Below, piece after piece: positions 3,926-30,691 of a stretch of 46,454 nt of DNA (position 1 is the first letter of the stretch; each line of letters begins with the position of its first letter). The DNA comes from a virus (Duplodnaviria; Caudoviricetes): the IMG/VR virus record IMGVR_UViG_3300049198_000022, positions 1-46,454 of that record. One strand, written 5' to 3'. The position numbers and the translations under genes are program-made. The notes beneath the pieces were generated by a model that saw only the letters and a list, made by a program, of their open reading frames with translations, was not told the origin of the DNA and ran no database searches.

Positions 3926-4231
3926 ATGGACCATGATGTAGAACTTAAGCGAGTGTGGTCGTACATGGACAAAGTTGCCGAAAAGCTGGATAAGCTTTCC
4001 GATCAGATCGCCGAAGTTAAAGAGACGGTCATCCGCATGGAGGCTGCGGATCACAAGAGCGAGATTGCTAAGATTGACGCGCGGTTGCTTCTCTTGGAAG
4101 CTGGTGATCACCGCCGCTCGGGCGAGCGCAGCAGCAGTGACCGTCTTGTTGACTTGATGTTCAAACTCGCCCCTTGGCTTCTCCCCTGCGCCCTAGCTGT
4201 GTGGATGGTCCTCGGGGAGCCCCGCGTCTGA
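3926..4231 (+). CDS. Coiled-coil protein with C-terminal TM helix (second holin/antiholin candidate)
   Basis: GAGGA SD before ATG 3926; heptad pattern, then hydrophobic LAPWLLPCALAVWMVLG. Confidence 0.55.
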   Translation: MDHDVELKRVWSYMDKVAEKLDKLSDQIAEVKETVIRMEAADHKSEIAKIDARLLLLEAGDHRRSGERSSSDRLVDLMFKLAPWLLPCALAVWMVLGEPRV

Positions 4232-4570
4232 GATCAGCCGTTCAATGCGGGTCACTGCCCCTTGGTAGTGGCCCGCGATGATCTGCTTAAGAATCTCTTC
4301 CTCTTCGGCGGGGAACTGACGGTAATAGTCAGAATACATGGACGAGCCCACATAGGCGTGACGGTCTGGGACGTGCCGCTCCATCGCCTTCTGCAAGTAG
4401 TGGATCGCCTTGTGCAGGTCCTCCACCCCATTCTTCTCGCGCCAGCGGCTGACGTACTTGGTGGCGCAGCCCAGCAGATAGTGCAGGTTGATGTCGCACA
4501 CCCAGTCCCAGTGCTGATACTCGCGGTTCTTGTAGTGACTCCCGCCGTGCTGGATATCATTCGCGCCCAT
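4193..4570 (-). CDS. DUF3310 / T7 gp1.7-like nucleotide kinase
   Basis: QHGGSHYK...LGCATKYVSRWREKNGVEDLHKAIHYL signature; TAATG coupling to the upstream HD gene. Confidence 0.8.
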   Translation of the reverse strand: MGANDIQHGGSHYKNREYQHWDWVCDINLHYLLGCATKYVSRWREKNGVEDLHKAIHYLQKAMERHVPDRHAYVGSSMYSDYYRQFPAEEEEILKQIIAGHYQGAVTRIERLISDAGLPEDHPHS

Positions 4571-5103
4571 TACAGGTTCCCCCATTCGTTGCTGATGTAG
4601 AAGGCAAGGTCGTAGAACTTGGCGTCGTCGCGATGCTGGTTGCTGTCGCCAAGAAGGTTGTTGACGTAGTGCATGAAGTTGCCGAAGGCGACGTCTGTCG
4701 TGCGGTTGCCCAGCCGCCGCTCTTCGAGGCAGTGCATCGCTCCGTCAAGGCTGTCTGCCAGCTTGAGCCAGCGTTGCTCGTCGGGAGTAAGTTCTGGTAT
4801 CTCCAGCCCGACGCTGGCCAGCACTTCTTCCTCCGCCGCATCCATCTGGTCGCGCAGGCCCGCCACCCTACGCTTGAACGGCGCGGGCATGTCGCCCGTC
4901 TCACACTCGGGTATGTCGTGTACGTGGGCGGCGTACAGCAGGGACATCGTCAGCCGTGGCTCAGGCACACAGCAGTAGATGATGCTGGTCAGGTTGAACG
5001 TGTGGTGGCCGACAGGGTTGGCCATCAGCAGCGTCATGGTGTGGAACCGCTGCACGCGCCCGCCACGGCGCATGAGCTCGAGCTTGTCTGTCAGGTCTGT
5101 CAC
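4570..5103 (-). CDS. HD-domain deoxynucleotide phosphohydrolase (YfbR/DatZ-like fold)
   Basis: RVQRFHT, GHH, HDIPECETGDMPAPFK and KLADSLD motifs. Confidence 0.85.
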   Translation of the reverse strand: MTDLTDKLELMRRGGRVQRFHTMTLLMANPVGHHTFNLTSIIYCCVPEPRLTMSLLYAAHVHDIPECETGDMPAPFKRRVAGLRDQMDAAEEEVLASVGLEIPELTPDEQRWLKLADSLDGAMHCLEERRLGNRTTDVAFGNFMHYVNNLLGDSNQHRDDAKFYDLAFYISNEWGNL

Positions 5104-6182
5104 TTTTGGCTCCTCTTGCTTGCGCGCTCAATCCACTCTGCGCAGGCCACGCGCCAGTCGCAGTTACCGGCGTTGCCGATGTAGTCGCAGCCCGCCGCTG
5201 CCGCGTCGTAGTCGCCCATCTTGTGCAGGTCCCACACGTGGAGCATGGGTATAGCCACGCCCGCCATGAACGGATGGCTCAGGGTAGGTGACGCTTCCCG
5301 CCACGCATACTTCTGCGCAGGGTCTTCGCACGGCGAGGCCGCGTACTCCATGAACTTGGGCAGGTCCTGCTCAAAGGCGTCCATGGAGTGTGGGAAGAAC
5401 ATAGGCGTCTGATTGACCGCACCCTCCGCAACGTCGAGCGAGTACCTGTCGTTCTTGAGAATGTCCTCGATCTTCTCGGGGAACCCAGCAACGACGTCCG
5501 TGTAGACGTGATAGTTGTTGCTGATCTGCGTCATGGTTCCCACACGCACGCCGATGCGCGCCGCCATGTACTCCAGCAGCACGCTGAAGTGAACGGCGTT
5601 GGCCCCGTGGGCTCCCCACCAGAGATCGTTGCTGCGGCAGCATACGGTCATGTGAAGCTCACCGTCACGGACGCGGAAGTAACAGTGTGTATTGCACGGA
5701 ACGTCCTTGCTGCCGTGGATCGCCGCCGACAGATCGCCATAGCCCTTCTTGCTGCCGCCATCCCACATGGCCAGCACGGCGCGGCGGCTGGAAGGATCGT
5801 CCCGCAGGTGCAGCACGATGTTCTCGATCTGGTCGGTGCTGAAGTACACGCGCCAGCGGTGGCCGTATGCCGCAGGCTGGGTCTTGCCGCCATCGTCAGA
5901 GTACTCGGCCATACGCTTGTTGAACTGGGCCAGCCACGGTAGGTCGTTGCGCCCTGCGAGCATCCATAGGCTCTCGAACAAGTGGAAGAACGGGTTGGCC
6001 TTGCGCATGGGGCTGAACAGCACGCGCTCCATGGGGCGCTGCGTCACGGTAGTGACCGGCACGTTGGCAACGCGCACCGGCCCGTTCCGGCTGGTCTCGT
6101 AGTCGAAGTGCAGCGGGTTGTCCATTAGCGCCAGCCCGTAGCCGAGCGCGCGGTTGACGTTTCTTGCTCTGATAAGGTGCAT
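5100..6182 (-). CDS. Thymidylate synthase-family dUMP hydroxymethylase
   Basis: ANPFFHLFESLWMLAGRND, AYGHRWR, SSRRAVLAMWD, catalytic DVPCN, RSNDLWWGAHGAN (Asn at the dU-specificity position), NNYHVY; TGATG coupling to the rSAM gene. Confidence 0.88.
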   Translation of the reverse strand: MHLIRARNVNRALGYGLALMDNPLHFDYETSRNGPVRVANVPVTTVTQRPMERVLFSPMRKANPFFHLFESLWMLAGRNDLPWLAQFNKRMAEYSDDGGKTQPAAYGHRWRVYFSTDQIENIVLHLRDDPSSRRAVLAMWDGGSKKGYGDLSAAIHGSKDVPCNTHCYFRVRDGELHMTVCCRSNDLWWGAHGANAVHFSVLLEYMAARIGVRVGTMTQISNNYHVYTDVVAGFPEKIEDILKNDRYSLDVAEGAVNQTPMFFPHSMDAFEQDLPKFMEYAASPCEDPAQKYAWREASPTLSHPFMAGVAIPMLHVWDLHKMGDYDAAAAGCDYIGNAGNCDWRVACAEWIERASKRSQK

Positions 6183-7150
6183 CACATTTTCTCCCATTCA
6201 CGTTTCACAGGGGTAGTCAGCGGCTTCTTGGAAGCCTGCTCGTCCAAGAACTGCTTGCCCTTGGGGGTCGGCTTGGGCAGCTTCTCTCTGCCGAACTTGT
6301 CGGGCAGCAGACCCACGCGGTAGCTTGTGGCGTCGCAGCCTGCACACGGGCCGAAGTCACGCAGCCCTACGACAAGCCGACGACGCGCCTCGTCCATCAC
6401 CTTGCCGTGCCATATCTCCAGCAGGCCGACCTTGTTGATGTTGCCGGTGGCCAGCTCGCCACGCCAGTCGTTGCAGCAGATGGCGGTGGAGCCGTCCCAC
6501 CGGAAGCTCAGCTCTCGGAAGGGCTTGGCGCACGGCTTGCCTTGCCCCGCGCTGCTCTTGGGAGCGCCTGCGCCCGCATGGTTATTCAGCGAGGCGTGCG
6601 TTCCCTCCGTGTTGGCGTCAATGGGCCGGATATGGACCAGCCGCCGCGCCTTGGCCTTCTGGCGGGCGTGGGGATTGCCAAGCGGGTTATCGGGGTACAC
6701 GAAGAACTCGTAGTCCGCATTCGGCGCAGCGGCAAGGCGGGCCAGCACCTTCGGCACAAGGCTGACGTTCTGGTACTCGTCCAGCCCCAGTGTGTTCAGC
6801 CCCGCTTCGAACAGAGTGCGGATTGTGTTCGGCCCCTCCGGTCCTTGTAGCCCGCCGCCGTTGGAAAGCATCAACATGCTGACGCGCGGCAGATGCCTGC
6901 GGAATATGCCGACTATCTTGGCGGCGTCGGGGTGCATGGTCGGCTCCCCGTGCATCGCGAACTCAAGGCGGCAGTTCCACCTATGTTCGGCAAGCTGACT
7001 GGCAATGCGCTCCGCGGTCTTAGCGGTCATGAACTTGTAGGTCCGCTCTTTGCCACGGATGCCGTTGATGCCGCAGAACGAGCAGCGCAGATTACAACCT
7101 TCCGCGAGCTCGATCTGTACGGCAAACGGCGGCTCTTGTTTGTACGGCAT
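6182..7150 (-). CDS. Radical SAM enzyme with SPASM/twitch domain
   Basis: CNLRCSFC (CxxxCxxC), HGEPTMH, C-terminal CAKPF...DGSTAICCND...CAGC; AAGGAG SD. Confidence 0.9.
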   Translation of the reverse strand: MPYKQEPPFAVQIELAEGCNLRCSFCGINGIRGKERTYKFMTAKTAERIASQLAEHRWNCRLEFAMHGEPTMHPDAAKIVGIFRRHLPRVSMLMLSNGGGLQGPEGPNTIRTLFEAGLNTLGLDEYQNVSLVPKVLARLAAAPNADYEFFVYPDNPLGNPHARQKAKARRLVHIRPIDANTEGTHASLNNHAGAGAPKSSAGQGKPCAKPFRELSFRWDGSTAICCNDWRGELATGNINKVGLLEIWHGKVMDEARRRLVVGLRDFGPCAGCDATSYRVGLLPDKFGREKLPKPTPKGKQFLDEQASKKPLTTPVKREWEKM

Positions 7151-7174
7151 TTGATATCTCCTTGTTACCGGCGC

Positions 7175-7203
7175 AGCTTACAGCGGCAGCGCGTGAGGGG
7201 CAA
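7175..7203 (-). promoter_or_regulatory. Sigma70-like promoter upstream of rSAM-HMase-HD-kinase genes
   Basis: Minus strand TTGCCC-N17-TAAGCT in the intergenic gap. Confidence 0.55.
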
Positions 7204-7207
7204 CAGA

Positions 7208-7360
7208 TTATGTGCGTCCCACAACTATGTAGACACTGAGAACCGGCAGTATCACATGAAGCTGGATGCCGCGCTGCCCATTGGGGCCGCGCACGGCGCA
7301 GAACATGAACCCGAGACCGAACTGGGTCTTGTCTATAGTGTGGCTGAAGTCAAAGATCAT
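7208..7360 (-). CDS. Small 50-aa protein (MIFDFSHTIDKTQFGLGFMF...VVGRT), absent from ORF track
   Basis: Hand-translated; ATGA overlap with the upstream stop at 7357-7360. Confidence 0.55.
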   Translation of the reverse strand: MIFDFSHTIDKTQFGLGFMFCAVRGPNGQRGIQLHVILPVLSVYIVVGRT

Positions 7361-8211
7361 TGGCCGTTCTCCCACGGTAGGTCAAGCGGGGTGTACTTCT
7401 GCTTCGGCCGGCCCTCGCCCAGCCGCACGCGCTCGTACTTGTCGAATTCACACAGACAGTTCTGCATGTCGTGGGCGGTAAGCGGCTCCGCATTCCAGCG
7501 GGCGTTCACCGCATCGCGCAGCCGCAGCAGCGTTTCGCGGAACTCCATCTCCTTCCACGGCGCGTCGGTGGGGCGCAGCATAACGCGGTTCAGCCCGCGT
7601 CGGCTCCCAGGACCGCTGGCCGCAAAGGTGTGGAAGTCTTCCCACGTACGCCCGTCGTTGACGTACTTCCAGTCAGCGATCACCTGCGCGGCCATGAAGC
7701 TGCCCAGCCCTTGCTGCTCGAGCAGAACCATCTGGACGTTAGCGAGCTGGCCCACGTTCATGCGGGTGGTCAGCTTGTCGCGGTTCTTCCACATGGGCTT
7801 GAGTACCACGTCGACGACGTAGTCGACCTTATCCATCGCCCGCCCGTTAGTGCTGACGATGTAGGCGGCATTGAAGTTCTTCTTGCCCGCGCTGGCCCGC
7901 ATCTTCAGATTCTTGCGCATACGGGCGGGGTCGAACGGCAGGACGTTCTCACGAATGTAGTCCAGCGTCTCCTCGTTATTGAACAGCCGCGCCACCACGA
8001 GCGCGAACCACACGTACGGAGACGACGAGTAGTAGTCCCCGTAATTCTTGAGAATCCACTTGGTCACGCGGTCGTCATTGCGGCGGACGTTGCAGAAGCG
8101 GTACTCCGAGATAATCGGGTCGGGCTTGGCCCTGCTATGCCAGCCCTCTTCCTTGGCCACCCTATGACGCTCGCGCGCCTTGATGAAGTCGACTACAGCC
8201 TTCACTCGCAT
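7357..8211 (-). CDS. Helical 5-hmdU DNA kinase-like protein (aGPT-Pplase1 / HMUDK_hel family, HhH-glycosylase-like fold)
   Basis: ERHRV...DPIISEYRFCNVRRNDDRVT, ARLFN, AAYIV, GLGSFMAAQVIAD, GPGSRRGL, QNCLCEFDKY. Confidence 0.82.
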   Translation of the reverse strand: MRVKAVVDFIKARERHRVAKEEGWHSRAKPDPIISEYRFCNVRRNDDRVTKWILKNYGDYYSSSPYVWFALVVARLFNNEETLDYIRENVLPFDPARMRKNLKMRASAGKKNFNAAYIVSTNGRAMDKVDYVVDVVLKPMWKNRDKLTTRMNVGQLANVQMVLLEQQGLGSFMAAQVIADWKYVNDGRTWEDFHTFAASGPGSRRGLNRVMLRPTDAPWKEMEFRETLLRLRDAVNARWNAEPLTAHDMQNCLCEFDKYERVRLGEGRPKQKYTPLDLPWENGQ

Positions 8212-8233
8212 TACACCCTCCTAATGTTGGCGT

Positions 8234-8521
8234 TCACGTTACGTTGTTCTTCCACTCTTGCATAAACTTCTCGTCGCTGCGCAGCCGCTTGCGTATATGG
8301 TAGCCCTGTCGGCGGTCTACTTCAACGGCCCCTAGCCGCACGGCCTGCGCCCGCCTGCCCTTGGCGACGTCGTAGTGTGGGAAGCTGAACGGCTGGAACC
8401 ACTCACGCTTCATGCCTATGGCGTCGGCCATGACGTGCAGTTCGGCTATGGTGTCGGCGAACATGTGACACATGACCATACGTCCCAGCTTGTTCGCTGC
8501 CCCATCTACGTAGACCGCCAC
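8234..8521 (-). CDS. DUF4031-family protein
   Basis: MAVYVD...MCHMFADTIAELHVMADAIG...WFQ...PHYDV...AVRLGA. Confidence 0.8.
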   Translation of the reverse strand: MAVYVDGAANKLGRMVMCHMFADTIAELHVMADAIGMKREWFQPFSFPHYDVAKGRRAQAVRLGAVEVDRRQGYHIRKRLRSDEKFMQEWKNNVT

Positions 8522-9289
8522 CTACACCCTCCCAATTTCGTAGGCTTTCTTCCACTGGACACGCACGTCACGGCGTTCGGCCCACGCGTCCTTGCTCTTG
8601 GCATTCTTGGTGACCACGGTCACAACTCCAGGATGCAGCCGCGCCAGCCCCTCCGCGCCCTGCGCCTGCACTTCCAGCGAGCGATAGGTGGAGCAGCCTC
8701 CTGGAGCGTTGCTGCGACCCTGATCTTGACACCAGCGGTTCAGCGTGTGGCTCTCGTAGCCGCGCCGAAGAAGCTGAAGGGCTACGTCAAAGTCCTCCAT
8801 TACCGGCAGGCGGTCAAAGCGGATGCCCTCGCTCTTGAGTACGGAGGCGTCGTAGCCCAGCGCACGCAGACACCGAATGTTGTAGATGACCTCGTCGTCG
8901 GGGTTGCGGTTGGCACCTTCACGTACGGCGATGGAGGCGTGAACGCACTTCTTGAGCGTGGTCTCCATAGCCCGCAGCATCTGCGTGACGTCGGCCGGTG
9001 TGGCCTTGGCCAGCAGGCGCGGGTCGTCTGCCCGCCGTACGAAGAAGCTGAGGTCGTCGTCCAGCATAAGCACCGGCCCCTCGCTGATGTCTATGATATG
9101 TTGGCGCACCTTGCCGATGCCCTTGGCGCTAGTCACGTAGACCGCGTCAGCGCCGAAGCGCTCAGTGTATGCCTTGGCGTCGGCCTTTGCGACGACAAGC
9201 CTTGCCCGCTTGCGGGCGGCGGGAGGCAACTGATCGAAAGTGTGGTGGGCTTGGTCCGCCCTACCAAGGCTGGGGATGAATATCTGCAT
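8522..9289 (-). CDS. Glycosyltransferase, TET/JBP-associated (TAGT)/GREB1-like GT-A family
   Basis: IFIPSLGRA, GIGKVRQHI, MLDDDL (DxD), EDFDVALQLLRRGY, GGCSTYR. Confidence 0.8.
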   Translation of the reverse strand: MQIFIPSLGRADQAHHTFDQLPPAARKRARLVVAKADAKAYTERFGADAVYVTSAKGIGKVRQHIIDISEGPVLMLDDDLSFFVRRADDPRLLAKATPADVTQMLRAMETTLKKCVHASIAVREGANRNPDDEVIYNIRCLRALGYDASVLKSEGIRFDRLPVMEDFDVALQLLRRGYESHTLNRWCQDQGRSNAPGGCSTYRSLEVQAQGAEGLARLHPGVVTVVTKNAKSKDAWAERRDVRVQWKKAYEIGRV

Positions 9290-9370: not shown

Positions 9371-10042
9371 TTACGCGAACTCGATGTAACCCTTCTTGAC
9401 GCACCAGCCGAAGTCCAGCTTGCGATCGCCGTATTCCTTCGACGTGGCCAGCTCCGCGGAAGCGTCGTCGGTGGTCTTGTTGCCCATGACGACATCGACC
9501 ATGTGCGCGGTCCACGTGCCTTCGCGGGTCTTGATGTCGGCCCGCTTCACGAGATGCTTGTACTTGCGGTTCTCGGCCGGAGCCTTGGGCTCCTTGGGGG
9601 TCTTGGCCTTCGCAGCCGGTGCGGCCTTGGTCGCCTTCGCGGCGGGTGCGGCCTTGGCAGTGGTCTTCTTGGTCAACTTGGTCGCCATTTCTTGTAACTC
9701 CTCGTCTGTGAGTGGGACTACCCCACGAAAAAGCTGAACCGCTTCGGGAGTAGCCCCTTGGTTCAACATGTCAAGCTTTAGCTCTAATAGAGCAGACTGT
9801 AAAGCACTTTCTTCAAGGTTTAATCTCGGATAGTTTTTCAGCTCGTGGTCCATAATAATGCGGTCGCGTACGCCGAGCTGAGCGTCAACATTGGCCCAGC
9901 GGTACACCACCCGCACCCCGCAAAAGGTTTGCGCGGCGACGAGCATCCTACCCAGCTTGCCGCCCATAAGGCTGGCGGGGTTGCCTATCCAGTAGGGCTC
10001 AAAGGCGGGTGCCGGTGCCGGTACGGGTTTACGCTTGGCCAC
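9371..10042 (-). CDS. Protein with K/A/P-rich linker and C-terminal REGTWT..DxxW domain; likely internal start at 9688
   Basis: GTG start overlapping the helicase end; GAGGAG-N9-ATG at 9688 in frame; C-terminal domain paralogous to 26286 and 27676 ORFs. Confidence 0.75.
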   Translation of the reverse strand: MAKRKPVPAPAPAFEPYWIGNPASLMGGKLGRMLVAAQTFCGVRVVYRWANVDAQLGVRDRIIMDHELKNYPRLNLEESALQSALLELKLDMLNQGATPEAVQLFRGVVPLTDEELQEMATKLTKKTTAKAAPAAKATKAAPAAKAKTPKEPKAPAENRKYKHLVKRADIKTREGTWTAHMVDVVMGNKTTDDASAELATSKEYGDRKLDFGWCVKKGYIEFA

Positions 10043-15986: not shown

Positions 15987-16081
15987 AAAAAAGGTGGAGG
16001 CCGCGAGCGAGGGATCATCGCTCCGCCCCCTTCTAGCCCGTAGGCCAGCGCGACTGCGCGCGGGAGGGGTTACGCGCAGTC
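15987..16081 (-). terminator. Three consecutive hairpins ending in a U7 tract
   Basis: GACUGCGCG/CGCGCAGUC, CUGGCC-UACG-GGCUAG, GAGCGA/UCGCUC, then CCUUUUUUU. Confidence 0.7.
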
Positions 16082-17724: not shown

Positions 17725-17760
17725 GTCAATTCCTTTGGTTCTTAGAGAGTTCAGTTACTT

Positions 17761-17803
17761 GCGAGCGCTGACCAGAAAATGGAGTAAACTGGCCAGCGCC
17801 CGC
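17761..17803 (-). ncRNA. Candidate antisense hairpin RNA/5' leader with loop UUUACUCCAUUUU
   Basis: 15-bp stem with two G-U pairs that form only on the minus strand; GCTATACA -10-like box just upstream (17815-17808); loop complementary to early-gene RBSs. Confidence 0.55.
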
Positions 17804-17833
17804 GCCATGTATAGCACGCCCGCAAGGGATGCG

Positions 17834-18721
17834 CTATAGGTCGCCGCGCAGCCCCAAATATACGGGGTGGCGCGGCTTATCCTTGACCCCGATGGGCAGG
17901 AACTTGTACTTGATCACTTTGCCGAGCCACTCATCGCGGTTATCCCAGATCTCTTGGCGCTCTGCGTCGGTGAAGCCGGTGCCAACATCGAACTCGACGC
18001 CGCCGAACTGGTCGCTCATGCCGCGCACCTTAAGCGCGCCCAAGGTGCCGGTTGGCTTCATGTTCTCCTTGTGGCTGGAGCGTTCGGTGCGGCCCAGCGC
18101 GTTGCGCTTGGCCTCGTTGGCATTGTGCATCCGCTCGTCAAAGCCGATGATCATGGCCTCGGCGTCTTCGAACCGCTTCAGCTTCCACAGGGCCATGTCG
18201 GTCTTGCCGCTGCGCCCTTGCTTGTACAGGCCGGTCGTGCTGCGACCCATGAGGCCCTCGTAGCCGCGAGAAAGATACTCGGCCTCCCACCGGTCGATCT
18301 CGTCGTGTGTGCGGCACACCTGATGCGGGACCAGCTTGAGGCGCGGCGACTTCTTCTTAGCGACAAGCGCCTTGGCCTCCAGCAGCCGCTCGGTGAAGGG
18401 CATGTCGCTCTTCAGGTCAAAGACATGGAAGCACCAATCCGGCTCGCCATCCTGCGACATCACGCCGCTGACCGTGTTGCGGTAAACGTCCTTGTCGTTC
18501 GGCGGGCCGACGATCAGCTCACCGTCAAGCCCGTGCGGCAGCTTCATAGCCTTGAGCGCATTGCGGATGAACAGGTTGGGAATGTCCTTCAGCGACCGCG
18601 TGAACGGTACGCCGCCCAGTATCGTGCAGCGGATGCCGTCTAGCTTGGGGCTGACCAGCGCAGGCAGACGCGCCTTGTCAACCGAGTCAAGTTTGAATGC
18701 GAGCATCACTTTGTCTGTCAT
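17834..18721 (-). CDS. ATP-dependent DNA ligase
   Basis: SPKLDGIR (KxDG), LDGEL, FHVFD, GYEGLM, WKLK, VGTGFTD, PRHPVY. Confidence 0.95.
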   Translation of the reverse strand: MTDKVMLAFKLDSVDKARLPALVSPKLDGIRCTILGGVPFTRSLKDIPNLFIRNALKAMKLPHGLDGELIVGPPNDKDVYRNTVSGVMSQDGEPDWCFHVFDLKSDMPFTERLLEAKALVAKKKSPRLKLVPHQVCRTHDEIDRWEAEYLSRGYEGLMGRSTTGLYKQGRSGKTDMALWKLKRFEDAEAMIIGFDERMHNANEAKRNALGRTERSSHKENMKPTGTLGALKVRGMSDQFGGVEFDVGTGFTDAERQEIWDNRDEWLGKVIKYKFLPIGVKDKPRHPVYLGLRGDL

Positions 18722-24405: not shown

Positions 24406-25259
24406 AGCGCCTCCAACTCTGCGATAGGCTCGCCGGTTGCGCGGATAGCCGCAGCATTGATCTGCTGCTCCGCCTGACGCACCGCATCTTGGAGCGTGCC
24501 TGCGCCCGTGCCGGTGGAGCCCGTTTGCAGACCGTCAATGCAGAGCGCATCGGGGTTGAGGTTGAGGACGTCGTCCGGAACCATAGGTACGACATTTCCG
24601 TACCCATAGTCTTCCATCGCCGCTGGCATTCGCTCCCACACGCCGAACGCAAGGCGGCGGAAAGCCGCAGGGTGGCCAAGGCCGAACGCGACAGCGCTCA
24701 GGTCCAGTGGGTCGCCAGCCTGCTTGATGGTCCACACTACGCATCCGCGCTTGCCCCTGAGCCTGCTGACAGCGCAGCCGATCAGCTCAATGCGGACGCC
24801 TCGGTTCTCAAGGCGGTCAATGATGCTGACCATTGCGGCGGCGAAGTTTGCCATGCGCCGCGCCGACGTGCCTGCCGAGCAGCACACGTTGACGCAGATG
24901 GTCATGGTCTGGCGCGGCTTGTGCGCATTGCCACGGCGGACCATGTTGAACGGGTCGCCGCTGATCGCACGGGCGACGTCAGCGTAGTCACCGCCGACGC
25001 TATAGGTGCGCTCAGCCCGCTGGCCGGTCGGGATGGAGTTGATCAGCGCAGACACCTTGCCGACGCCATCCTCCCATCCCTCGCTGGCCAGCCGCACCGC
25101 GCCTTCGTAACCGGCGCTGAGGTCCCAGTCGTGGTCGCGCCCCGTGGCACGGCTGGCGGCCTGCTTCCACGTCCTCGGCGTTTCGGCCGACCAAGTGGCC
25201 ATCTGGAGGGCACTGTCAAACTGATAGATGACCCGCTGCTCGTCAGTGAACTTAAGCAT
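24402..25259 (-). CDS. VWA-like (CobT-like) partner of the AAA+ ATPase
   Basis: Start MLKFTD at 25259; alternating beta/alpha core (TICVNVCCSAG, IIDRLENRGVRIEL, HPAAFRR); directly downstream of the MoxR-type ATPase. Confidence 0.6.
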   Translation of the reverse strand: MLKFTDEQRVIYQFDSALQMATWSAETPRTWKQAASRATGRDHDWDLSAGYEGAVRLASEGWEDGVGKVSALINSIPTGQRAERTYSVGGDYADVARAISGDPFNMVRRGNAHKPRQTMTICVNVCCSAGTSARRMANFAAAMVSIIDRLENRGVRIELIGCAVSRLRGKRGCVVWTIKQAGDPLDLSAVAFGLGHPAAFRRLAFGVWERMPAAMEDYGYGNVVPMVPDDVLNLNPDALCIDGLQTGSTGTGAGTLQDAVRQAEQQINAAAIRATGEPIAELEAL

Positions 25260-26283
25260 GATAGCTCTCCCCGAGGCGTGCTGCGACGCGCGCACGATTG
25301 GTCGCATCCAGACCCTTCCAGATGCAGGCTTCTTCAACCTTGGCCTTGTCCATGCCAGCGGCGAGCAGCTTGGCGCCGGTGATGCTGGCACGGGGCGACA
25401 CGATGTGGCGCACCTTTTCAACGGTGATCGCACGACGCACCGCTTGCACCCGCTTGACCCAGTCGGCGTCAACCGCCAGCTTGAGCTCCAGCGCCTCGTC
25501 GTAGTCCACCTCAAACACGGTGAACCGGTCCAGCGTGGCTGCGTCCAGCTGATTGCGACCGACGTACTGGCGGTCAGCGCCGCGACCGAAGGTGTTCCCC
25601 GCAGCAATGGCGAAGAAGTCCTTGTGCCGCTTGACGAGTCCGTCAGGGAAGGGGCAAGTGTCGTTGGCAAGTGCCGCATTGAAGGCGGTCATTGCGTCGG
25701 CGTCGCTCGCGTCCACCTCGTCAAACAGGAAGCCGCCGCCGTGCTCATAGGCCTCGCGGAATTGTGTGCGCACGACCTTGCCGTGTGCGTCGATAAAGCC
25801 GAGCAGCTTGAACTCGCTCGTGACGCGCGCCTCCATGTAGAAGGGGCGCTGCAAGATCGTGCAGATTTGTTCGGCCAGCGTGGTCTTGCCCGAGCCAGCC
25901 GGACCCACGATCATGGGCGATGCGCCTGCCACTACGGCGAGCAGCACGTCCTCCAGCATGTTATGGGCCAAGTCCACCTTGACCGCAGGCAACTTGCCAA
26001 CCTTGATCTCGGTCACACGGCTGAGCAAGTTCAGGTTGTCCTTGACGAGCTCGGGCACAAGTGCCGCCATGCGCTGCGCCATAAGGTCCACGACCTTGGT
26101 CACCGCCTCGTCCTTGGGGTCAACCGCTTCGGTCTTGGTCACCGCAGGAACAGCGCCCGCGATGCAGTTGCCCAGCGTGTGACGGACGGTCCAGCGACCG
26201 TCTACTTGCTCGGCGACGCCGAGGCCTGCGGGAACCTTGTGGCCGCACTTGTGGCAGACGCCTTCGTACTGATTGGTCTTCAT
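25252..26283 (-). CDS. MoxR/CobS-like AAA+ ATPase with N-terminal zinc ribbon
   Basis: GPAGSGKT, FLFDEVD, AGNTFGRG...YVGRNQLDAATLDRF, SPR; N-terminal CHKCG. Confidence 0.9.
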   Translation of the reverse strand: MKTNQYEGVCHKCGHKVPAGLGVAEQVDGRWTVRHTLGNCIAGAVPAVTKTEAVDPKDEAVTKVVDLMAQRMAALVPELVKDNLNLLSRVTEIKVGKLPAVKVDLAHNMLEDVLLAVVAGASPMIVGPAGSGKTTLAEQICTILQRPFYMEARVTSEFKLLGFIDAHGKVVRTQFREAYEHGGGFLFDEVDASDADAMTAFNAALANDTCPFPDGLVKRHKDFFAIAAGNTFGRGADRQYVGRNQLDAATLDRFTVFEVDYDEALELKLAVDADWVKRVQAVRRAITVEKVRHIVSPRASITGAKLLAAGMDKAKVEEACIWKGLDATNRARVAARLGESYHA

Positions 26284-26285
26284 GA

Positions 26286-26723
26286 TTAATCCTCCATTTT
26301 GAATGTGATGTATTGCTTTTCTTCGACGAGCCAGTTCCAGTCAATGCCTTTGCTGGCGAACTCGGGGTATTGCGTGGCCAGCGCCAGCTCCGCATCCTTG
26401 ACGCGCATATTGGCGACCACGACGCTGACCATCGCATGGGTGTAAGTGCCGCGCCGGTGCCGGTTAGGGGCGAACTCGCGCAGGACACGATAGGGCCGGT
26501 CGGTCGCTTTAGGGCGACGGGTGCGGCGGGTGCGGGTGCGCATCGCTTGGCCAGTAAAGGCGTCGCGGATCGGCGGTGGCGGCAATAGGTCACCGCTGCT
26601 AGGTGGCCTAGACGTGACAGGCTTGCGGGGCATAAGGCGCTCCAGCAAGTTGGCGATCACCTCGCGGGGTATTCCTTCGGCTTGCGCCTGCATCCGTTTG
26701 GCAAAGTCTTTCGCGACTTCCAT
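26286..26723 (-). CDS. Basic protein with REGTWT-like domain (paralogue 2)
   Basis: DRPYRVL...RRGTYTHAMV...IDWNWLVEEKQYITF; GGAGG SD. Confidence 0.75.
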   Translation of the reverse strand: MEVAKDFAKRMQAQAEGIPREVIANLLERLMPRKPVTSRPPSSGDLLPPPPIRDAFTGQAMRTRTRRTRRPKATDRPYRVLREFAPNRHRRGTYTHAMVSVVVANMRVKDAELALATQYPEFASKGIDWNWLVEEKQYITFKMED

Positions 26724-26779
26724 ATTTTCCTCCAGTGGTTAAGGCCAGCCGCCTTTATAGCGGCAAAGCGGTTGAAAAC

Positions 26780-26953
26780 CTAGCGGTCGCTGCGGGCTGC
26801 GTCATAGCGGCGCTGCCATGCCCCTAGGGCAAGGCTCACGCTGACCCGTCGCTGCGCAGCACGGCGGTCGCACAAGGCGTAGTGCCGCGCAATAGCGGCG
26901 CTAGTGGCCTTGCGGCGCTCGTCAGCCTGACGCTGATCTACAGGGGCGCTCAC
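26780..26953 (-). CDS. Small Arg/Ala-rich early protein
   Basis: Hand-translated 57 aa; GTGA overlap. Confidence 0.45.
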   Translation of the reverse strand: MSAPVDQRQADERRKATSAAIARHYALCDRRAAQRRVSVSLALGAWQRRYDAARSDR

Positions 26954-27054
26954 CGGCTTGCCCCGCAGTGGATGCAGACGTCCATGGCTGGCTCAATCAG
27001 CTGGCCATTGTCGTCCACCGCCTCGGTCCATTCGTGCTGGCATGTGCTGCTCAT
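26950..27054 (-). CDS. 34-aa zinc-finger microprotein (MSSTCQHEW...CIHCGASR)
   Basis: AAGGAG SD, ATGA overlap, CxH...CxxC. Confidence 0.65.
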   Translation of the reverse strand: MSSTCQHEWTEAVDDNGQLIEPAMDVCIHCGASR

Positions 27055-27212
27055 GCTACTGCTCCTTGCTTGCGTGCTGTATCCCTGCGCCACTGCGCTT
27101 CGCTGCGAGACATCCCCGTATATCGGGGCCGCCCATATTCAAACAGCGCCCAGCTATAGGCGTCGTCGCCCTCATATTTGGCGATCGTGAATCGTTGCGG
27201 CTTGGCCATCAT
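27051..27212 (-). CDS. Small early protein (MMAKPQRFTIAKYEGDDAYSWALF...)
   Basis: ATGA-coupled ORF. Confidence 0.65.
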   Translation of the reverse strand: MMAKPQRFTIAKYEGDDAYSWALFEYGRPRYTGMSRSEAQWRRDTARKQGAVA

Positions 27213-27382
27213 GCCATCCCCATGTCTTGCAAGGCGTGGCCGACACGCATGTCCACCGCGCCCTTGGTCAGCTTGGCCAGTTCGGCCTCGGTGAAGCAGC
27301 ACGCCTCAAAGGCGTATGCGCCTTCCGGCCCATAGGCTGCTTCGGCCTCGGCCATGCGTGTTTCGTAAAGCGATTTGGACAT
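27209..27382 (-). CDS. Small early protein (MSKSLYETRM...)
   Basis: Hand-translated 57 aa; GGGGAGGG SD. Confidence 0.6.
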   Translation of the reverse strand: MSKSLYETRMAEAEAAYGPEGAYAFEACCFTEAELAKLTKGAVDMRVGHALQDMGMA

Positions 27383-27385
27383 GTG

Positions 27386-27583
27386 TCAGCCCTCCCCGTT
27401 AAGCTTGGCAATGGCCGCATCAATGCTGGCCTGCGAGTCACCCGTCCGCGCGATGCGGGTGCGGCTGCGGGGCAAGCCGCAATCGGCCTGCTCCTGCTCC
27501 ACCACGGCGCGGTCGTAGTCGCCAAAATGGACGCCCCATGCGCCATCCTCGCGGGTGGCCAGTACGTAGTAAGACTTTTCCAT
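27386..27583 (-). CDS. Small early protein (MEKSYYVLATREDGAWGVHFGDYDR...)
   Basis: AAAGG SD before ATG 27583. Confidence 0.7.
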   Translation of the reverse strand: MEKSYYVLATREDGAWGVHFGDYDRAVVEQEQADCGLPRSRTRIARTGDSQASIDAAIAKLNGEG

Positions 27584-27675
27584 TTGTTTACCTTTCGTTA
27601 AGGACTGCCAGTGTGGCCAGTCATCGCAACACTGGACGCGCCGGTTAAAGGGTGCGCCCAGTGCTGCGGGACGGG

Positions 27676-28338
27676 TCATGCGAACGCGATGAACTTCTTG
27701 GCGGCCATCCACGTCCAGTCCAGCTTGCGCGCCTTCGCGTCGAACGGCTTCTTAGCGAGCTCAGCGTCGGCCTTGGCGGTGGACGTGTGCTTCAGGGCCA
27801 GTCCGACCATATAGATCGTCCACGTCCCCTCGCGCAGCCCGAGGTCGGCCAAGTTGGCCAGCGCCTTGTAAGTGCGGTCCGCGCCCTTGGCGGGTGCCGG
27901 TGCCTTGGCAGCGGGTGCCGCCTTGGACGCCGGTGCGGTTGCCTTGGCAGCGGGTGCCGCCTTGGCCTTGCTATCGGCAATGGCCTTGCTGGCATGGGGC
28001 GCGTCGCGGCCGGAAATGCCGGTGGCCAGCTTGGCAGCGGGTGCCGCCTTGGCCAGCTTGGCCCAGAGCGCTTCAGCCGCCTTGAACGACTGGCCCACTG
28101 CGCAAGCCGCGCGCAGTTCGCCACTCCAGCGGTCGCTGGGGAACGACAGGGTGTCGCCGCCTGCCGAGTGGACGTGGTGCGACGTGCTGTTAGCGCCCCC
28201 CTTGCTGGACACGATCAGGTCGGCCTGCGCGGCGGTCAGCTTGGCGGGTGCCTTGGCCTTGGCGGGTGCGGTTGCCTTGGCGGGTGCCTTGGCCTTGGCG
28301 GTTGCGGTCTTGACGGACTTATTTACGGACTTGGTCAT
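27676..28338 (-). CDS. Histone-H1-like K/A/P-rich protein with REGTWT domain (paralogue 3)
   Basis: KAAPAAKA repeats; C-terminal DRTYK...REGTWTIYMV...LDWTWMAAKKFIAFA; TGGAG SD. Confidence 0.8.
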   Translation of the reverse strand: MTKSVNKSVKTATAKAKAPAKATAPAKAKAPAKLTAAQADLIVSSKGGANSTSHHVHSAGGDTLSFPSDRWSGELRAACAVGQSFKAAEALWAKLAKAAPAAKLATGISGRDAPHASKAIADSKAKAAPAAKATAPASKAAPAAKAPAPAKGADRTYKALANLADLGLREGTWTIYMVGLALKHTSTAKADAELAKKPFDAKARKLDWTWMAAKKFIAFA

Positions 28339-28342
28339 TGTA

Positions 28343-28407
28343 TCTACTCCATTTTCCGCAGCAAATGCGCTGCCAGTTGCGCCCTAGGTGCAAGGCGCAA
28401 GTGGCAA
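28343..28407 (-). repeat. Early leader element copy 1 (hairpin plus GAAAATGGAGT RBS)
   Basis: TGCCACTTGCGCC...GGCGCAACTGGCA, nearly identical to the copy at 28739-28798. Confidence 0.85.
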
Positions 28408-28442
28408 CGGCGCGCCGTGCTAGGGCGCGCCAGTTGGTTAGA

Positions 28443-28730
28443 TCATTCGGCCAGCAAGGCGCAAGCCGTTTCAAAGGCGAATTCGTAGTCGGCAGCAATG
28501 GCGCGCGGCACGGGGCAACGCTCCTTGCGTGGCAGCGGTTCGCTGATTCCCAAATAGCTGGCCAGCGCATCGCGCAGCTTGTCGTCGGCCTTGGCCCAGT
28601 GCGCGGCGGCACGGCTTGCGGCGGCATACTGCGGATCGCCGTTTAGCGTGGCGGTCAGCCATGCCAGTGCAGCGGGGCAGTCCATGCCAGTGGCGGCGAC
28701 GGTGAGCTCAAAGTAAAATTCGTTTTCCAT
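28443..28730 (-). CDS. Hypothetical early protein
   Basis: TGGAG SD and conserved leader. Confidence 0.65.
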   Translation of the reverse strand: MENEFYFELTVAATGMDCPAALAWLTATLNGDPQYAAASRAAAHWAKADDKLRDALASYLGISEPLPRKERCPVPRAIAADYEFAFETACALLAE

Positions 28731-28738
28731 TTGTTAAC

Positions 28739-28798
28739 ACTCCATTTTCTGCAAAATTGCCAGTTGCGCCCCGCTAGGTGGCAAGGCGCAAGTGGCAA
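28739..28798 (-). repeat. Early leader element copy 2
   Basis: TTGCCACTTGCGCC...GGCGCAACTGGCAA then GCAGAAAATGGAGT. Confidence 0.85.
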
Positions 28799-28833
28799 TG
28801 GCGGCGCTAGGTTGCCCCGCGCCGCCGCTGCTT

Positions 28834-28849
28834 TGTGTGTGTGTGTGTG
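28834..28849. repeat. (TG)8 microsatellite
   Basis: Directly visible. Confidence 0.95.
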
Positions 28850-29520
28850 GTGGCACCCTGCCCCCTGCATTTCAGCCCTAGCGGGCAGTTGCAAAGCTGG
28901 CCTGCATTGCAGGGGTATATGCCCCCACGCCGCCGCTGCCTTGCCGCCGTTATCCGCTGGACCACTACATAAGGGGCGCTTGCGCCTGCCCCTTACGTGG
29001 TGCCACCCGCCTGCAATTATTGCCGCACGGCTGCTAACCCGTGGCGCGGCTTTAGGTGCCGCGTACCTTTGCAAACTTGCCACCGCACCCCGCAGGGTCT
29101 TGCCGTGATGGCCTTGTGTGTGCCTAGCCGCGCATTGCAGGGGTCGGTCGCCCTAGCCGCTAGGTGTGGCTGGAACCCGCCACCGGCTGCGGCACCATGC
29201 CGCAACACGTGAATTGCAAGCGTCGTGCCAAACACGAAAAACGGCGGAAATCAGCCATTTTTCCAGCCGCGCCCAGCGCCGCCGCGCCCAAAGTGTAAAG
29301 AAACTTTACAGCCGAAAAAACTTTTCGGGCGCAAGTGCCTCAAATCACACGCTTTTCCCACTGTAAAAAATTCCGTCACCCATTATGGAAAACCTTACAC
29401 GTCCTAGGGCTCGTTTTAAGCGAATCTGACGCGAGAAATCCGCCAGCCATACTAGCATGACCGGACGACCCGTTTTCGCATTTTCCTACTTTTGGCACGG
29501 GACTTGCTGGGGTGCAAAGA

Positions 29521-29952
29521 TCATGCCAACTTCGCCGCCTCGGCCGCAGTGGCGCGCCGCACGGTAACGGCCACGGTTCCATCCGCGGTGTGGACTAGCC
29601 GCTGCCATGCCCCGTCGCGACTAAGCATAACTGCAAGGCTCTGCGCGGTGGGCGGTGCGGCGCTGCCCAGTTTGGCCAGTGTGTCCACTAGCAGCCGGTG
29701 CGCGGCCTTGCTGCCCATAGCGTACGCAATGGGTCCCGGCTGGCAGTCCACCACATGGACGATGCTTGGGGTGCGTCCCGCGCGCTGGCCGGTGCGCTTG
29801 GCCTGCCCCGCCGCAACACTTGCGCGGTGGGCTGCATCGGCCTGCAAGGCGTCGTCCAGCTGGCCAGCTAGGGCAGTGTGGGCTGGATCGCCCGTGGTGC
29901 GTAACGCAGCCGCTGCGCGCATGATCGTAAGCGTTAGCGAACTCTTAAGCAT
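29521..29952 (-). CDS. First early gene, Ala-rich hypothetical protein (MLKSSLTL...)
   Basis: AGAAGGA SD before ATG 29952. Confidence 0.6.
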   Translation of the reverse strand: MLKSSLTLTIMRAAAALRTTGDPAHTALAGQLDDALQADAAHRASVAAGQAKRTGQRAGRTPSIVHVVDCQPGPIAYAMGSKAAHRLLVDTLAKLGSAAPPTAQSLAVMLSRDGAWQRLVHTADGTVAVTVRRATAAEAAKLA

Positions 29953-30019
29953 AGCTGTTATCCTTCTAAGTGTTTGAAACTGCTCGCATAACAGATAAAC
30001 AGTTACCGCGCAGCCCATA

Positions 30020-30140
30020 CCCTATAAACCTAGTTACTAATTATGACCAATATACGTTAACCAACTCCCTTAGTTATTATTTAGTAACTACTTTTACCCC
30101 CTTAAGGTAGGTTAATCATGTGTTATGTGTTATTCTTTGC
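30020..30140. other. AT-rich tract with inverted repeat (origin/terminus/promoter candidate)
   Basis: TAGTTACTAA (30031-30040) and TTAGTAACTA (30081-30090); conspicuously AT-rich in a GC-rich genome. Confidence 0.5.
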
Positions 30141-30490
30141 CAAGTTTTGCTCGGCTTTACAGTGGCTTAGGCGCTGCGAGCGCCGCACACATGGCTGCTC
30201 CGCCACCACACATGGCCAGAATTGGTCGCCATAACAGTCACTTACAAGGTTAATTCCGTGCGTCGCCACGTGGCGCTGGTCAAACGGTTTGCAAACAGGG
30301 TAAACGTGGCCGGTCCTTATTGGAACGGAGCCGCCGAGCCAAAGAGTGGATCAGTCTGTCGTCCCCGAGACACGACGTGACCGAGACACGGAGCAGCGAA
30401 GTCACCAAGGGACATGGACGTTGGTTAATCGTAGCGACTGCGAGACTCAGGTCGCCGACAGACAGACTTAGGTGCGTCGTCTCTCGGGAC

Positions 30491-30542
30491 GATATGGTTA
30501 ACGAATATGGTAAACAGAAATGGTTAACAGATATCGTTAACG
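30491..30542 (+). repeat. Four tandem imperfect 13-bp repeats (consensus GATATGGTTAACR)
   Basis: GATATGGTTAACG / AATATGGTAAACA / GAAATGGTTAACA / GATATCGTTAACG. Confidence 0.9.
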
Positions 30543-30691
30543 AGGCGACGTCGCGACTTCGGGCGTCGTTAACCACGATGCGGGGTGCGCGGGGGTAGGT
30601 TGGGCGCGGCGGCGGTGTCGCCTTGGTAATACCCGAGACCAGAGCCGCAGAGTAGTTTCGTCATTGAAGAGTATCAGCAAGGAGTACCGGA

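What the first reader, a model, noticed from the sequence alone, without database searches (positions are those of the whole stretch)
17757..17826. Hairpin RNA whose loop is antisense to the ribosome-binding sites of three early genes (candidate trans-acting shut-off RNA)
Seen: the minus strand reads GCGGGCGCUGGCCAG-UUUACUCCAUUUU-CUGGUCAGCGCUCGC, a 15-bp stem. Its two G-U pairs would be A-C mismatches on the other strand, which favours a minus-strand RNA. It begins a few nt after a GCTATACA -10-like box. The loop is complementary to three SD regions: GAAAAUGGAGUAGA of the histone-like gene (28343-28356; 14 nt with one G-U), CAGAAAAUGGAGU of ORF 28730 (28739-28751; 13 nt perfect) and AAAAUGGAG of the AAA+ ATPase gene (26292-26300; 9 nt). 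An upstream CUUGCGGGCG could pair with the 3' arm in read-through transcripts, giving an alternative fold. Inference: a middle-phase transcript leader or processed sRNA silences translation of early mRNAs 8-11 kb away. No repressor gene is evident in the genome.
Basis: partly seen in the sequence, partly recalled or inferred. Interest (0 to 1): 0.85.

Follow-up and report, generated by a model that had tools for sequence, protein, structure and literature searches.

The report
Phage leader hairpin with anti-RBS loop
A bacterial virus encodes a predicted RNA hairpin at the likely start of its DNA-replication transcript, and the hairpin's open tip mirrors the ribosome-landing sites of three likely early genes, so it likely damps their translation, although no RNA has been observed and more distant relatives keep the hairpin without the match.

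Summary
A 15-bp minus-strand stem (17761-17803) lies 4 nt past a TATACA -10-like box. Its 13-nt loop pairs 13, 12 and 9 contiguous Watson-Crick nt with three ribosome-binding sites. Random CUCC-bearing loops reached 13 nt in 0-1 of 1200 trials.

A hairpin sits at this position across the clade, with unrelated stems and G-U pairs on the coding strand, so a 5' leader RNA is likely. The closest relative keeps the pairing core CUCCAUUUU at 61% synonymous identity. A fragment likely from that same phage keeps three matching early sites.

Against: the orthologous loops of three complete, more distant relatives match their own sites only at chance level. The AAUGGAG site predates the loop, two targets are paralogous cassettes, net energies are modest (-7 to -10 kcal/mol) and no terminator frees an sRNA. 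The proposed alternative fold is disfavoured.

Verdict: a clade-wide 5' leader hairpin whose loop likely represses early translation in this sub-lineage (0.45), versus stabiliser plus coincidence (0.35). This scan noted similar anti-RBS hairpins before on other DNA (about 60 notes). Cluster K mycobacteriophage SAS repeats show the same single inverted copy in print.

The parts
17761..17803 (-). 15-bp stem (2 G-U) with 13-nt loop; predicted 5'-terminal hairpin of the transcript that runs into the replication genes
   Evidence: positional homologues
17776..17788 (-). U/C-rich loop UUUACUCCAUUUU, predicted fully open (P=0.93); core CUCCAUUUU is the complement of AAAAUGGAG
   Evidence: core unchanged in L083
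17808..17815 (-). GCTATACA -10-like box (TG-extended), half of an inverted repeat with 17833-17838 that overlaps the ligase stop; promoter role inferred
   Evidence: a TATA-type box recurs at this place in L083, L085, L058, L098, L005, L090, L093, L071
17263..17724 (-). 153-aa conserved gene directly downstream (first cistron of the inferred transcript); PHROG 13900 hit, function not established
17834..18721 (-). ATP-dependent DNA ligase; its stop overlaps the promoter-like box
28738..28751 (-). Candidate target 1: RBS of the 95-aa orphan gene 28443-28730 (13 WC plus 1 G-U)
   Evidence: net -10.2 kcal/mol, rank 2 of 51
28342..28358 (-). Candidate target 2: RBS of the 220-aa Ala/Lys-rich gene 27676-28338 (12 WC; 17 bp with 3 G-U, covering the whole loop)
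   Evidence: net -7.1 kcal/mol, rank 9 of 51, because the site is partly folded
26292..26300 (-). Candidate target 3: RBS of the AAA+ ATPase gene 25252-26283 (9 WC)
   Evidence: net -8.8 kcal/mol, rank 4 of 51; not kept in L127 or L128
28357..28412 (-). Leader cassette (hairpins) before the 220-aa gene, paralogous to the cassette before the 95-aa gene
   Evidence: repeat D18, 22 of 23 nt identical; folds
28752..28803 (-). Leader cassette before the 95-aa gene; makes targets 1 and 2 non-independent
16052..16081 (-). Second intergenic hairpin of the same operon with a C-rich loop (UAACCCCUCC); at the matching place G001 has a loop with 10 WC to the RBS of its first early ORF

Best explanation
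This is a predicted promoter-proximal RNA hairpin at the inferred 5' end of the phage's replication-gene transcript, and in this sub-lineage its open loop likely base-pairs in trans with the Shine-Dalgarno regions of the first genes of the inferred early operon, which would block ribosome entry. Shown: the stem, its strand, its conserved position behind a -10-like box, the complementarity, and retention of the pairing core in the nearest relative. Inferred: that host RNA polymerase starts 2-7 nt upstream of the stem; that the stem protects the 5' end so that the leader, or a 5' decay fragment, accumulates; that pairing starts at CUCC-GGAG, spreads over the U-rich loop and opens 2-3 bp of the 3' arm; and that the result is damping of the 95-aa and 220-aa genes, with weaker and lineage-variable effects on the ATPase or the 145-aa gene. 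The stem is old and clade-wide, while the targeting loop looks like a recent, fast-turning-over addition.
For: (1) Match profile 13, 12, 9, 9 nt against 51 predicted start regions. With random loops forced to carry CUCC, a best match of 13 or more occurred in 1 of 1200 (uniform) and 0 of 1200 (U-rich) trials, 12 or more in 3 and 12 of 1200, and a third match of 9 or more in 0 and 22 of 1200; shuffles of the real loop gave 0, 0 and 2 of 1200. With one G-U allowed, 0 of 250 shuffles reached it. (2) The loop is open (P=0.93), and the stem persists in read-through RNA (pair probabilities 0.93-1.0). (3) In L083 (76-92% amino-acid identity for the core genes, 0.607 identity at 1083 four-fold sites) both G-U pairs are G-C and the 9-nt core is unchanged, while the sequence 3' of the stem has diverged; 0.607^9 = 0.011. 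(4) L127 is L083's nearest partner by tetranucleotide L1 distance (0.158; the same measure paired 5 of 5 complete genomes with themselves). It keeps AAAAUGGAG at the 220-aa orthologue, has a G-U-compatible AAAGUGGAG at the 95-aa orthologue, and has AAUGGAGG at the 145-aa orthologue, which pairs further with L083's changed loop. The sum of its top three early matches was reached by 1 of 250 shuffles. (5) G001 has, at another intergenic place in the same operon, a hairpin with 10 WC to the RBS of its first early ORF (0 of 100 shuffles). (6) Precedent: anti-SD motifs in hairpin loops silence RBSs (NfeR1, PMC10746234 passages), and cluster K SAS repeats have one inverted copy away from gene starts (PMC3203893 passages).
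Against: (1) The orthologous loops of complete relatives match their own start regions at chance level: G001 104 of 300, G002 295 of 300 and G004 236 of 300 shuffles as good, and the partial L098 61 of 300. G003 has no long hairpin here. (2) AAUGGAG before the 220-aa orthologue is present in G001 and G002, whose loops lack the complement, so the site is older than the loop and no compensatory change was seen. (3) Targets 1 and 2 are paralogous cassettes, and duplicated RBSs are common in relatives' early regions. (4) After accessibility costs the energies are modest and not top-ranked (ranks 2, 4 and 9 of 51). (5) The ATPase site is not kept in L127 or L128, and L128 has no matching site (300 of 300 shuffles as good). 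The L083-L127 pairing is unproven; the second composition measure ranked L127 fourth of nine and was right for only 2 of 5 controls. (6) RBS-upstream bases are well conserved between orthologues in general. (7) No terminator follows the stem. (8) The finding was selected for its match from a very large scan, so the p-values overstate it, and my early-gene sets were drawn after seeing the data.
Confidence: 0.45

Rival explanations
1. The hairpin is only a 5' stabiliser (and possibly a spacer) of the long replication-operon mRNA. U/C-rich loops with an anti-SD-like core arise easily in GC-rich stems, and the 12-13 nt match to one duplicated RBS cassette is chance or a relic of an inverted copying event.
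For: A promoter-like box followed by a hairpin at the ligase 3' end recurs across the wider family, often with short loops, as in L002, L003, L007, L015 and L088. Stems are unrelated in sequence, with 18 G-U against 2 A-C on the coding strand in 8 stems (stems were picked by folding that strand, which inflates the ratio). No own-genome targets were found for the orthologous loops of G001, G002 and G004. 5' secondary structure blocks RppH/RNase E entry (PMC3997798 passages).
Against: It does not explain why the loop core is unchanged in L083 while neighbouring unpaired sequence diverged, why the match is 0-1 in 1200 under CUCC-conditioned nulls, or why a stabiliser needs a 13-nt open loop.
Confidence: 0.35
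2. The loop is a generic anti-Shine-Dalgarno seed (6-9 bp) aimed at many messages, host mRNAs included; the long match to early phage genes is one outcome of U-rich flanks meeting A-rich RBSs.
For: Loops at this place are pyrimidine-rich, with CUCC or CCUC in the window, L083, G001 and L098. Loops at a second intergenic place carry CCCCUCC, CCCCCUC, CCCUC, UCCUCCCC or ACUCCU in five phages. This is the design of alpha-r14 sRNAs.
Against: The host is unknown, so host targets could not be tested. G002 and L085 loops lack CUCC. Broad SD blocking would also hit the phage's own middle and late genes.
Confidence: 0.1
3. The element acts in cis on transcription or processing (RNase III or RNase E site, or a put-like antitermination RNA; both recalled, not tested), or at the DNA level as an inverted copy of a protein-binding motif.
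For: It is promoter-proximal at the head of about 13 kb of co-directional genes. A hairpin of similar build (15 bp, 2 G-U) follows the 220-aa gene at 27625-27668. The promoter-like region itself is an inverted repeat.
Against: G-U polarity favours a single-stranded structure on one strand. The three other AAAATGGAG copies sit exactly at SD spacing, as expected of an RNA-level RBS. Rfam has no match. G003 does without the long stem.
Confidence: 0.1

Closest known systems
Start-associated sequences (SAS/ESAS) of cluster K mycobacteriophages (PMC3203893, passages read)
   Same: An extended SD repeat in one orientation before non-structural genes, a subset preceded by inverted repeats, and in four genomes a single copy in the opposite orientation away from gene starts; the authors left an RNA or protein ligand open.
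   Different: SAS is a 13-bp motif in 11-19 copies with an unrelated sequence. Here there are three copies of 9-13 nt, and the inverted copy fills the loop of a conserved promoter-proximal stem.
alpha-r14 / cuckoo sRNAs such as NfeR1 (PMC10746234, passages read)
   Same: An anti-SD motif displayed in a hairpin loop on stems of variable sequence, with predicted occlusion of several RBSs.
   Different: Those are free chromosomal sRNAs with three hairpins and an invariant CCUCCUCCC. Here there is one hairpin, loop ACUCC, no terminator, apparently an mRNA leader, and the loop is not invariant in the clade.
5'-terminal stabilising stem-loops of bacterial mRNAs (PMC3997798, passages read)
   Same: A stable stem within a few nt of the inferred start site, conserved in position rather than sequence.
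   Different: Stabilisers need no conserved loop; this loop is long, open, conserved in the nearest relative and complementary to RBSs.
T4 RegB endoribonuclease (PMC3014915, passages read)
   Same: A functional analogue: inactivation of early mRNAs at GGAG in their SD sequences.
   Different: RegB is a protein nuclease; here the proposed agent is an RNA loop that would mask the GGAG.
SviR of PLE satellites (10.1101/2022.04.08.487710, abstract and outline read); PreS and VpdS (review PMC12197685, passages read)
   Same: Trans-acting RNAs encoded by phages or phage satellites; SviR lowers translation of phage mRNAs.
   Different: These are free sRNAs of temperate phages or satellites acting on host or helper genes; none is an operon leader aimed at the same phage's early RBSs in the passages seen.

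Membership tests
Any Rfam family (cuckoo, C4 antisense RNA and others) | Covariance-model score at the gathering threshold | tested here: not met
   0 hits in the whole window; 0 at E<=1 in six relative loci; only chance-level CRISPR-DR12 and MIR531 rows off the hairpin at E<=10
alpha-r14 / cuckoo sRNA | Three hairpins, each with CCUCCUCCC in the loop | tested here: not met
   One hairpin with loop UUUACUCCAUUUU; motif as defined
alpha-r14 / cuckoo sRNA | Anti-SD sequence exposed in a loop on a variable stem | tested here: met
   CUCC in an open loop, P=0.93; stems vary among relatives
Trans-acting base-pairing sRNA | Independent short transcript with its own 3' end | tested here: not met
   No terminator-like site after the stem; the leader runs into the 153-aa gene. 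A processed fragment is not excluded
Trans-acting base-pairing sRNA | Seed complementary to target translation-initiation regions beyond chance | tested here: met
Trans-acting base-pairing sRNA | Seed and target conserved or co-varying in relatives | tested here: inconclusive
   Kept in L083 and L127; absent for the orthologous loops of G001, G002 and G004; no clear compensatory change
Trans-acting base-pairing sRNA | Expression and repression of targets shown | not testable with these tools
   Needs infection RNA and reporter or toeprint assays
5'-terminal mRNA stabiliser | Stem begins within a few nt of the transcription start | tested here: inconclusive
   The stem starts 4 nt after the TATACA hexamer, as in L083, L085, L058 and L098 within about 5-12 nt; the start site is not mapped
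5'-terminal mRNA stabiliser | Half-life depends on the stem | not testable with these tools
   Needs decay measurements
Cluster K SAS/ESAS | 13-bp SAS consensus in 11-19 copies | tested here: not met
   Three copies of a different 9-13 nt motif; definition
Cluster K SAS/ESAS | Single inverted copy not at a gene start | tested here: met
   17776-17784 on +, with no ORF start at SD spacing
Intrinsic terminator | U-tract after the stem | tested here: not met
   The stem is followed by AAGUAAC; not listed; no U-tract in L085, L058, L060 or L098 either

The most novel reading that the evidence does not exclude
A lytic phage uses the 5' leader of its replication-operon mRNA as a trans-acting, multi-target anti-RBS RNA that turns down its own early genes: an RNA-only counterpart of T4 RegB. 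The stem is an old scaffold and the loop is re-programmed, or relocated to another intergenic hairpin as perhaps in G001, when early RBS cassettes turn over. This would also give a mechanism for the unexplained lone inverted SAS copy of cluster K mycobacteriophages.
Probability: 0.35. Interest if true: 0.8.

Novelty: new variant of a known kind. Interest (0 to 1): 0.52.

Why it matters
How lytic phages stop making early proteins is known in few cases, with T4 RegB as the model. An mRNA leader that does it by masking Shine-Dalgarno sites would be a protein-free switch that is invisible to gene annotation and cheap to test: one 43-nt hairpin, three 30-nt leaders and compensatory mutants. It would also offer a testable explanation for repeated extended-SD tags with one inverted copy (SAS). 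If it fails, the result is still a clade-wide conserved 5' leader hairpin and a calibration of how often anti-SD loops match by chance.

Tried and rejected
Alternative fold with upstream CUUGCGGGCG: rejected (P at most 0.004). Plus-strand RNA, including a CsrA/RsmA-type GGA-loop decoy (family recalled): disfavoured, because the fold is weaker with two A-C mismatches and the plus-strand GCTATA at 17833 points away from the stem. Cis pairing of the loop with the downstream gene's own SD: by inspection, there is no useful pairing in the window and it is inconsistent in relatives. Terminator: no U-tract. Rfam: nothing. Formal covariation: MAFFT could not align the unrelated stems and RNAalifold returned 2 pairs, so no covariance model was built and G-U/A-C counts per stem were used. 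More close relatives: single-protein scans of viral contigs gave none with the 153-aa gene, and with the primase only G001, G002 and the L129 record; the hairpin pattern gave 0 hits; the ligase-end pattern gave 19 loci, of which 2 were G001 and G002 and none of the other 17 was a clade member with the hairpin; genome contigs gave 1 distant locus; cultured phages had no close relative. Full records of L083 and L098 are not held. Sequencing runs: no RNA holder listed; laying the one DNA run showed no variants at the hairpin or targets. G001's longer leader has a 10-bp match (one G-U) to an early RBS, but 25 of 150 shuffles did as well over all starts (3 of 150 over early starts, post hoc), so it is not counted as support. 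The G003 hit is an off-minimum parse that pairs mostly through stem bases, so it is not counted either. Functions of the 95-aa and 220-aa proteins: no family or fold. No earlier scan notes exist on this genome or on look-alike DNA.

Full report
Context. The window is a 46,454-nt virus record of about 61% GC. PHROG and Pfam scans show a P22-like portal, terminase, head and ejection genes on + (30.8-46.4 and 0-4.2 kb). A minus-strand block holds AAA+ ATPase, primase, ligase, DNA polymerase, helicase and a thymidine-modification cluster. No repressor or integrase appeared among the rows shown for 68 ORFs. No cultured phage is close. One public soil DNA run holds the stretch and may be its source. 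The host is unknown. 'Early' and 'middle' below are inferred from gene content and order, not measured.

Observation. The stem, loop and matches are as described. The minus strand 17761-17803 folds into 15 bp around a 13-nt loop, at -29.1 kcal/mol against -20.2 for the other strand; z is -3.15 against -1.60. AAAATGGAG occurs four times, once inverted in the loop and three times at SD spacing before ATGs at 28730, 28338 and 26283 (chance 0.13). Contiguous pairing is 13 WC plus 1 G-U, 12 WC (17 bp with 3 G-U, the whole loop) and 9 WC; hybrid-only energies are -21.6, -24.2 and -11.3.

Is the match more than chance? I predicted start regions with a crude SD-based caller (51 in the window, a few of them false). 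The loop's profile is 13, 12, 9, 9, 8, and one of the two 9s is a probably false start at 44500. Random 13-nt loops forced to contain CUCC reached 13 nt in 1 of 1200 (uniform) and 0 of 1200 (U-rich) trials, 12 nt in 3 and 12 of 1200, and a third match of 9 in 0 and 22 of 1200. So it is beyond a simple anti-SD effect. There are three caveats. The 28730 and 28338 leaders are paralogous cassettes, so they are about one event. With accessibility costs (my approximation of IntaRNA) the three sites rank 2, 4 and 9 of 51, at -10.2, -8.8 and -7.1 kcal/mol. And the finding was picked for this match out of a very large scan.

The hairpin in relatives. Scans with the ligase, an alignment of the downstream 153-aa protein and the ATPase gave related loci, and four near-complete records were fetched (G001-G004). 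After the ligase stop, a TATA-type box followed by a long stem recurs in L083, L085, L098, G001 (L060), G002 (L058) and G004 (L071), with more complex folds in L090, L093 and L005. Short hairpins occur in more distant phages, and G003, which lacks the ligase, has none. The stems are unrelated in sequence. Over 8 stems I counted 18 G-U and 2 A-C on the coding strand; this is inflated because the stems were found by folding that strand, and L098 folds better on the other strand. An automatic alignment failed, so there is no formal covariation score. In L083 both G-U pairs of the window are G-C, a change that is neutral only on the coding strand. I take an RNA hairpin at a transcript 5' end as likely; the start site is not mapped.

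Loop and targets in relatives: for. L083 keeps CUCCAUUUU unchanged at 0.607 identity over 1083 four-fold sites (0.011 if neutral), while the 3' flank has diverged. L083 lacks the early region. Two early-region fragments are about equally close in protein (L127, L128). Tetranucleotide L1 distance puts L083 nearest L127 (0.158; self-pairing was right in 5 of 5 controls), while a second measure was uninformative (2 of 5) and ranked L127 fourth of nine; four-fold identity (0.568 against 0.50) points the same way. L127 has AAAAUGGAG, AAAGUGGAG (G-U compatible) and AAUGGAGG before its 220-aa, 95-aa and 145-aa orthologues. These are the three best coding-strand partners of the L083 loop. The sum of the top three early matches was reached in 1 of 250 shuffles, although the single best match was not unusual (80 of 250 over all starts). 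A scan for inverted RBS copies anywhere in the relatives found, in G001, a different intergenic hairpin (11531) with 10 WC to the RBS of its first early ORF. Of 20 intergenic hairpins tested in five genomes, 3 beat all 100 shuffles: the window's, that G001 hairpin, and a G003 parse that I discount. C-rich loops recur at that second place in the window, G002, G003 and L005.

Loop and targets in relatives: against. The orthologous loops of G001, G002 and G004 match their own starts no better than shuffles (104, 295 and 236 of 300; L098 61 of 300 on a partial locus). G002, G003 and G004 showed no convincing anti-RBS hairpin elsewhere. AAUGGAG already precedes the 220-aa orthologue in G001 and G002, so the site is older than the loop. 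The ATPase site is lost in L127 and L128, and L128 has no matching site at all. Bases upstream of SDs are well conserved between orthologues generally. No clear compensatory change was seen. The ATPase lies behind a GCTATA box like the hairpin's own (26761), so it need not be earlier. No terminator follows the stem.

Mechanism. The most likely reading (0.45) is a two-layer element: an old promoter-proximal stem that would protect and present the 5' end of the replication transcript, and, in the window/L083 sub-lineage, a loop that would pair with the SD regions of the first early genes and damp their translation as the replication transcript accumulates. Pairing would nucleate at CUCC-GGAG, extend over the loop and open 2-3 bp of the 3' arm. 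Structure, position, complementarity and near-relative conservation are shown; transcription start, timing, pairing in the cell and repression are inferred. The main rival (0.35) is a stabiliser with a chance or relic match. A generic anti-SD seed (0.1) and cis processing, antitermination or DNA-level roles (0.1) remain.

Comparison with what is known. There is no Rfam match. It works like the anti-SD loops of NfeR1/cuckoo sRNAs (PMC10746234, passages) but fails their membership test. The arrangement matches cluster K mycobacteriophage SAS repeats with one inverted copy (PMC3203893, passages; its Fig. S3, which shows those copies, was not seen). 5' stem-loops as stabilisers: PMC3997798, passages. 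Early shut-off at GGAG by RegB: PMC3014915, passages. Phage sRNAs: review PMC12197685, passages (its supplementary table of 38 uncharacterised sRNAs was not seen) and SviR, abstract and outline. [quoted passage not shown] Three searches (listings only) showed no title or abstract describing a lytic phage leader loop that represses the phage's own early RBSs; the library omits most subscription papers. RNAIII/RsaE, HK022 put, T7 RNase III sites and CsrA-type decoys are recalled, not read. The scan's own notes list about 60 similar findings in at least 59 other genomes. They are unchecked and are not evidence here; they gave me the SAS and cuckoo leads, and they fit either a widespread mechanism or a selection effect.

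Verdict. This is a real, conserved RNA structure with a more-than-chance, lineage-limited anti-RBS loop; its function is unproven. New variant of a known kind; interest 0.52.

Noticed in passing
window 29216-29230 (-), 29493-29507 (+), 29514-29528 (-): Three sigma-54-type -24/-12 motifs (consensus recalled) cluster in the early control region (chance 0.18, 0 of 100 shuffles). Matching motifs occur in G001, G003, G004 and L127-L130, mostly as opposed pairs, but not in G002. YuA is reported to use sigma-54.
   Followed up: partly
window 27625-27668 (-): A second 15-bp, 2-G-U hairpin right after the 220-aa gene (z -5.6). Similar long stems flanked by CCCGUCC- and GAUGAC-like ends follow the orthologue in G001, G002, G003, L127 and L128. 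It may be a processing site.
   Followed up: partly
window 28357-28432 and 28752-28830; G001 45070-45340, G002 6240-5820, L130 6030-6460: Conserved early-leader switch: one upstream arm can pair either next to the SD of the first ORF or with a copy after that ORF. In G001, G002 and L130 the arm overlaps the SD in cis; in the window and L127 it does not.
   Followed up: partly
window 4193-9289 (-): Thymidine-hypermodification-type cluster: nucleotide kinase, HD-like hydrolase, thymidylate-synthase homologue, radical SAM/SPASM protein, 5-hmdU DNA kinase helical domain and TET-associated glycosyltransferase, in a phage with a P22-like portal. The radical SAM gene was found in G003 but not in G001, G002 or G004.
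   Followed up: no
window 25000-30000: CTAG is enriched: 18 in this 5 kb against 0-8 in the other bins, often in or beside leader hairpins.
   Followed up: no
window 30000-30550: AT-rich non-coding stretch between the divergent arms, with short GTTAAC-type repeats and an inverted repeat at 30025-30096; candidate replication origin or genome end.
   Followed up: no
window 17808-17838: The promoter-like region is an inverted repeat giving GCTATA on both strands; the plus-strand copy (17833) would point antisense into the ligase gene. A similar repeat is present in L083 and L005.
   Followed up: no
window 27676-28338, 26286-26723, 9371-10042: The C-terminal part (about 70 aa) of the 220-aa, 145-aa and 223-aa proteins cross-match the same regions in relatives, which suggests a small repeated domain of unknown function in early and middle proteins.
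   Followed up: no
L060:9815-9870 and L090 leader: G001 and L090 share an extra structured leader module (CAAGGCYGGUCAG ... AGAUUCCRGCAGCGU) with a compensated GCYGG/CCRGC stem ahead of the main hairpin; no Rfam match for L090.
   Followed up: partly
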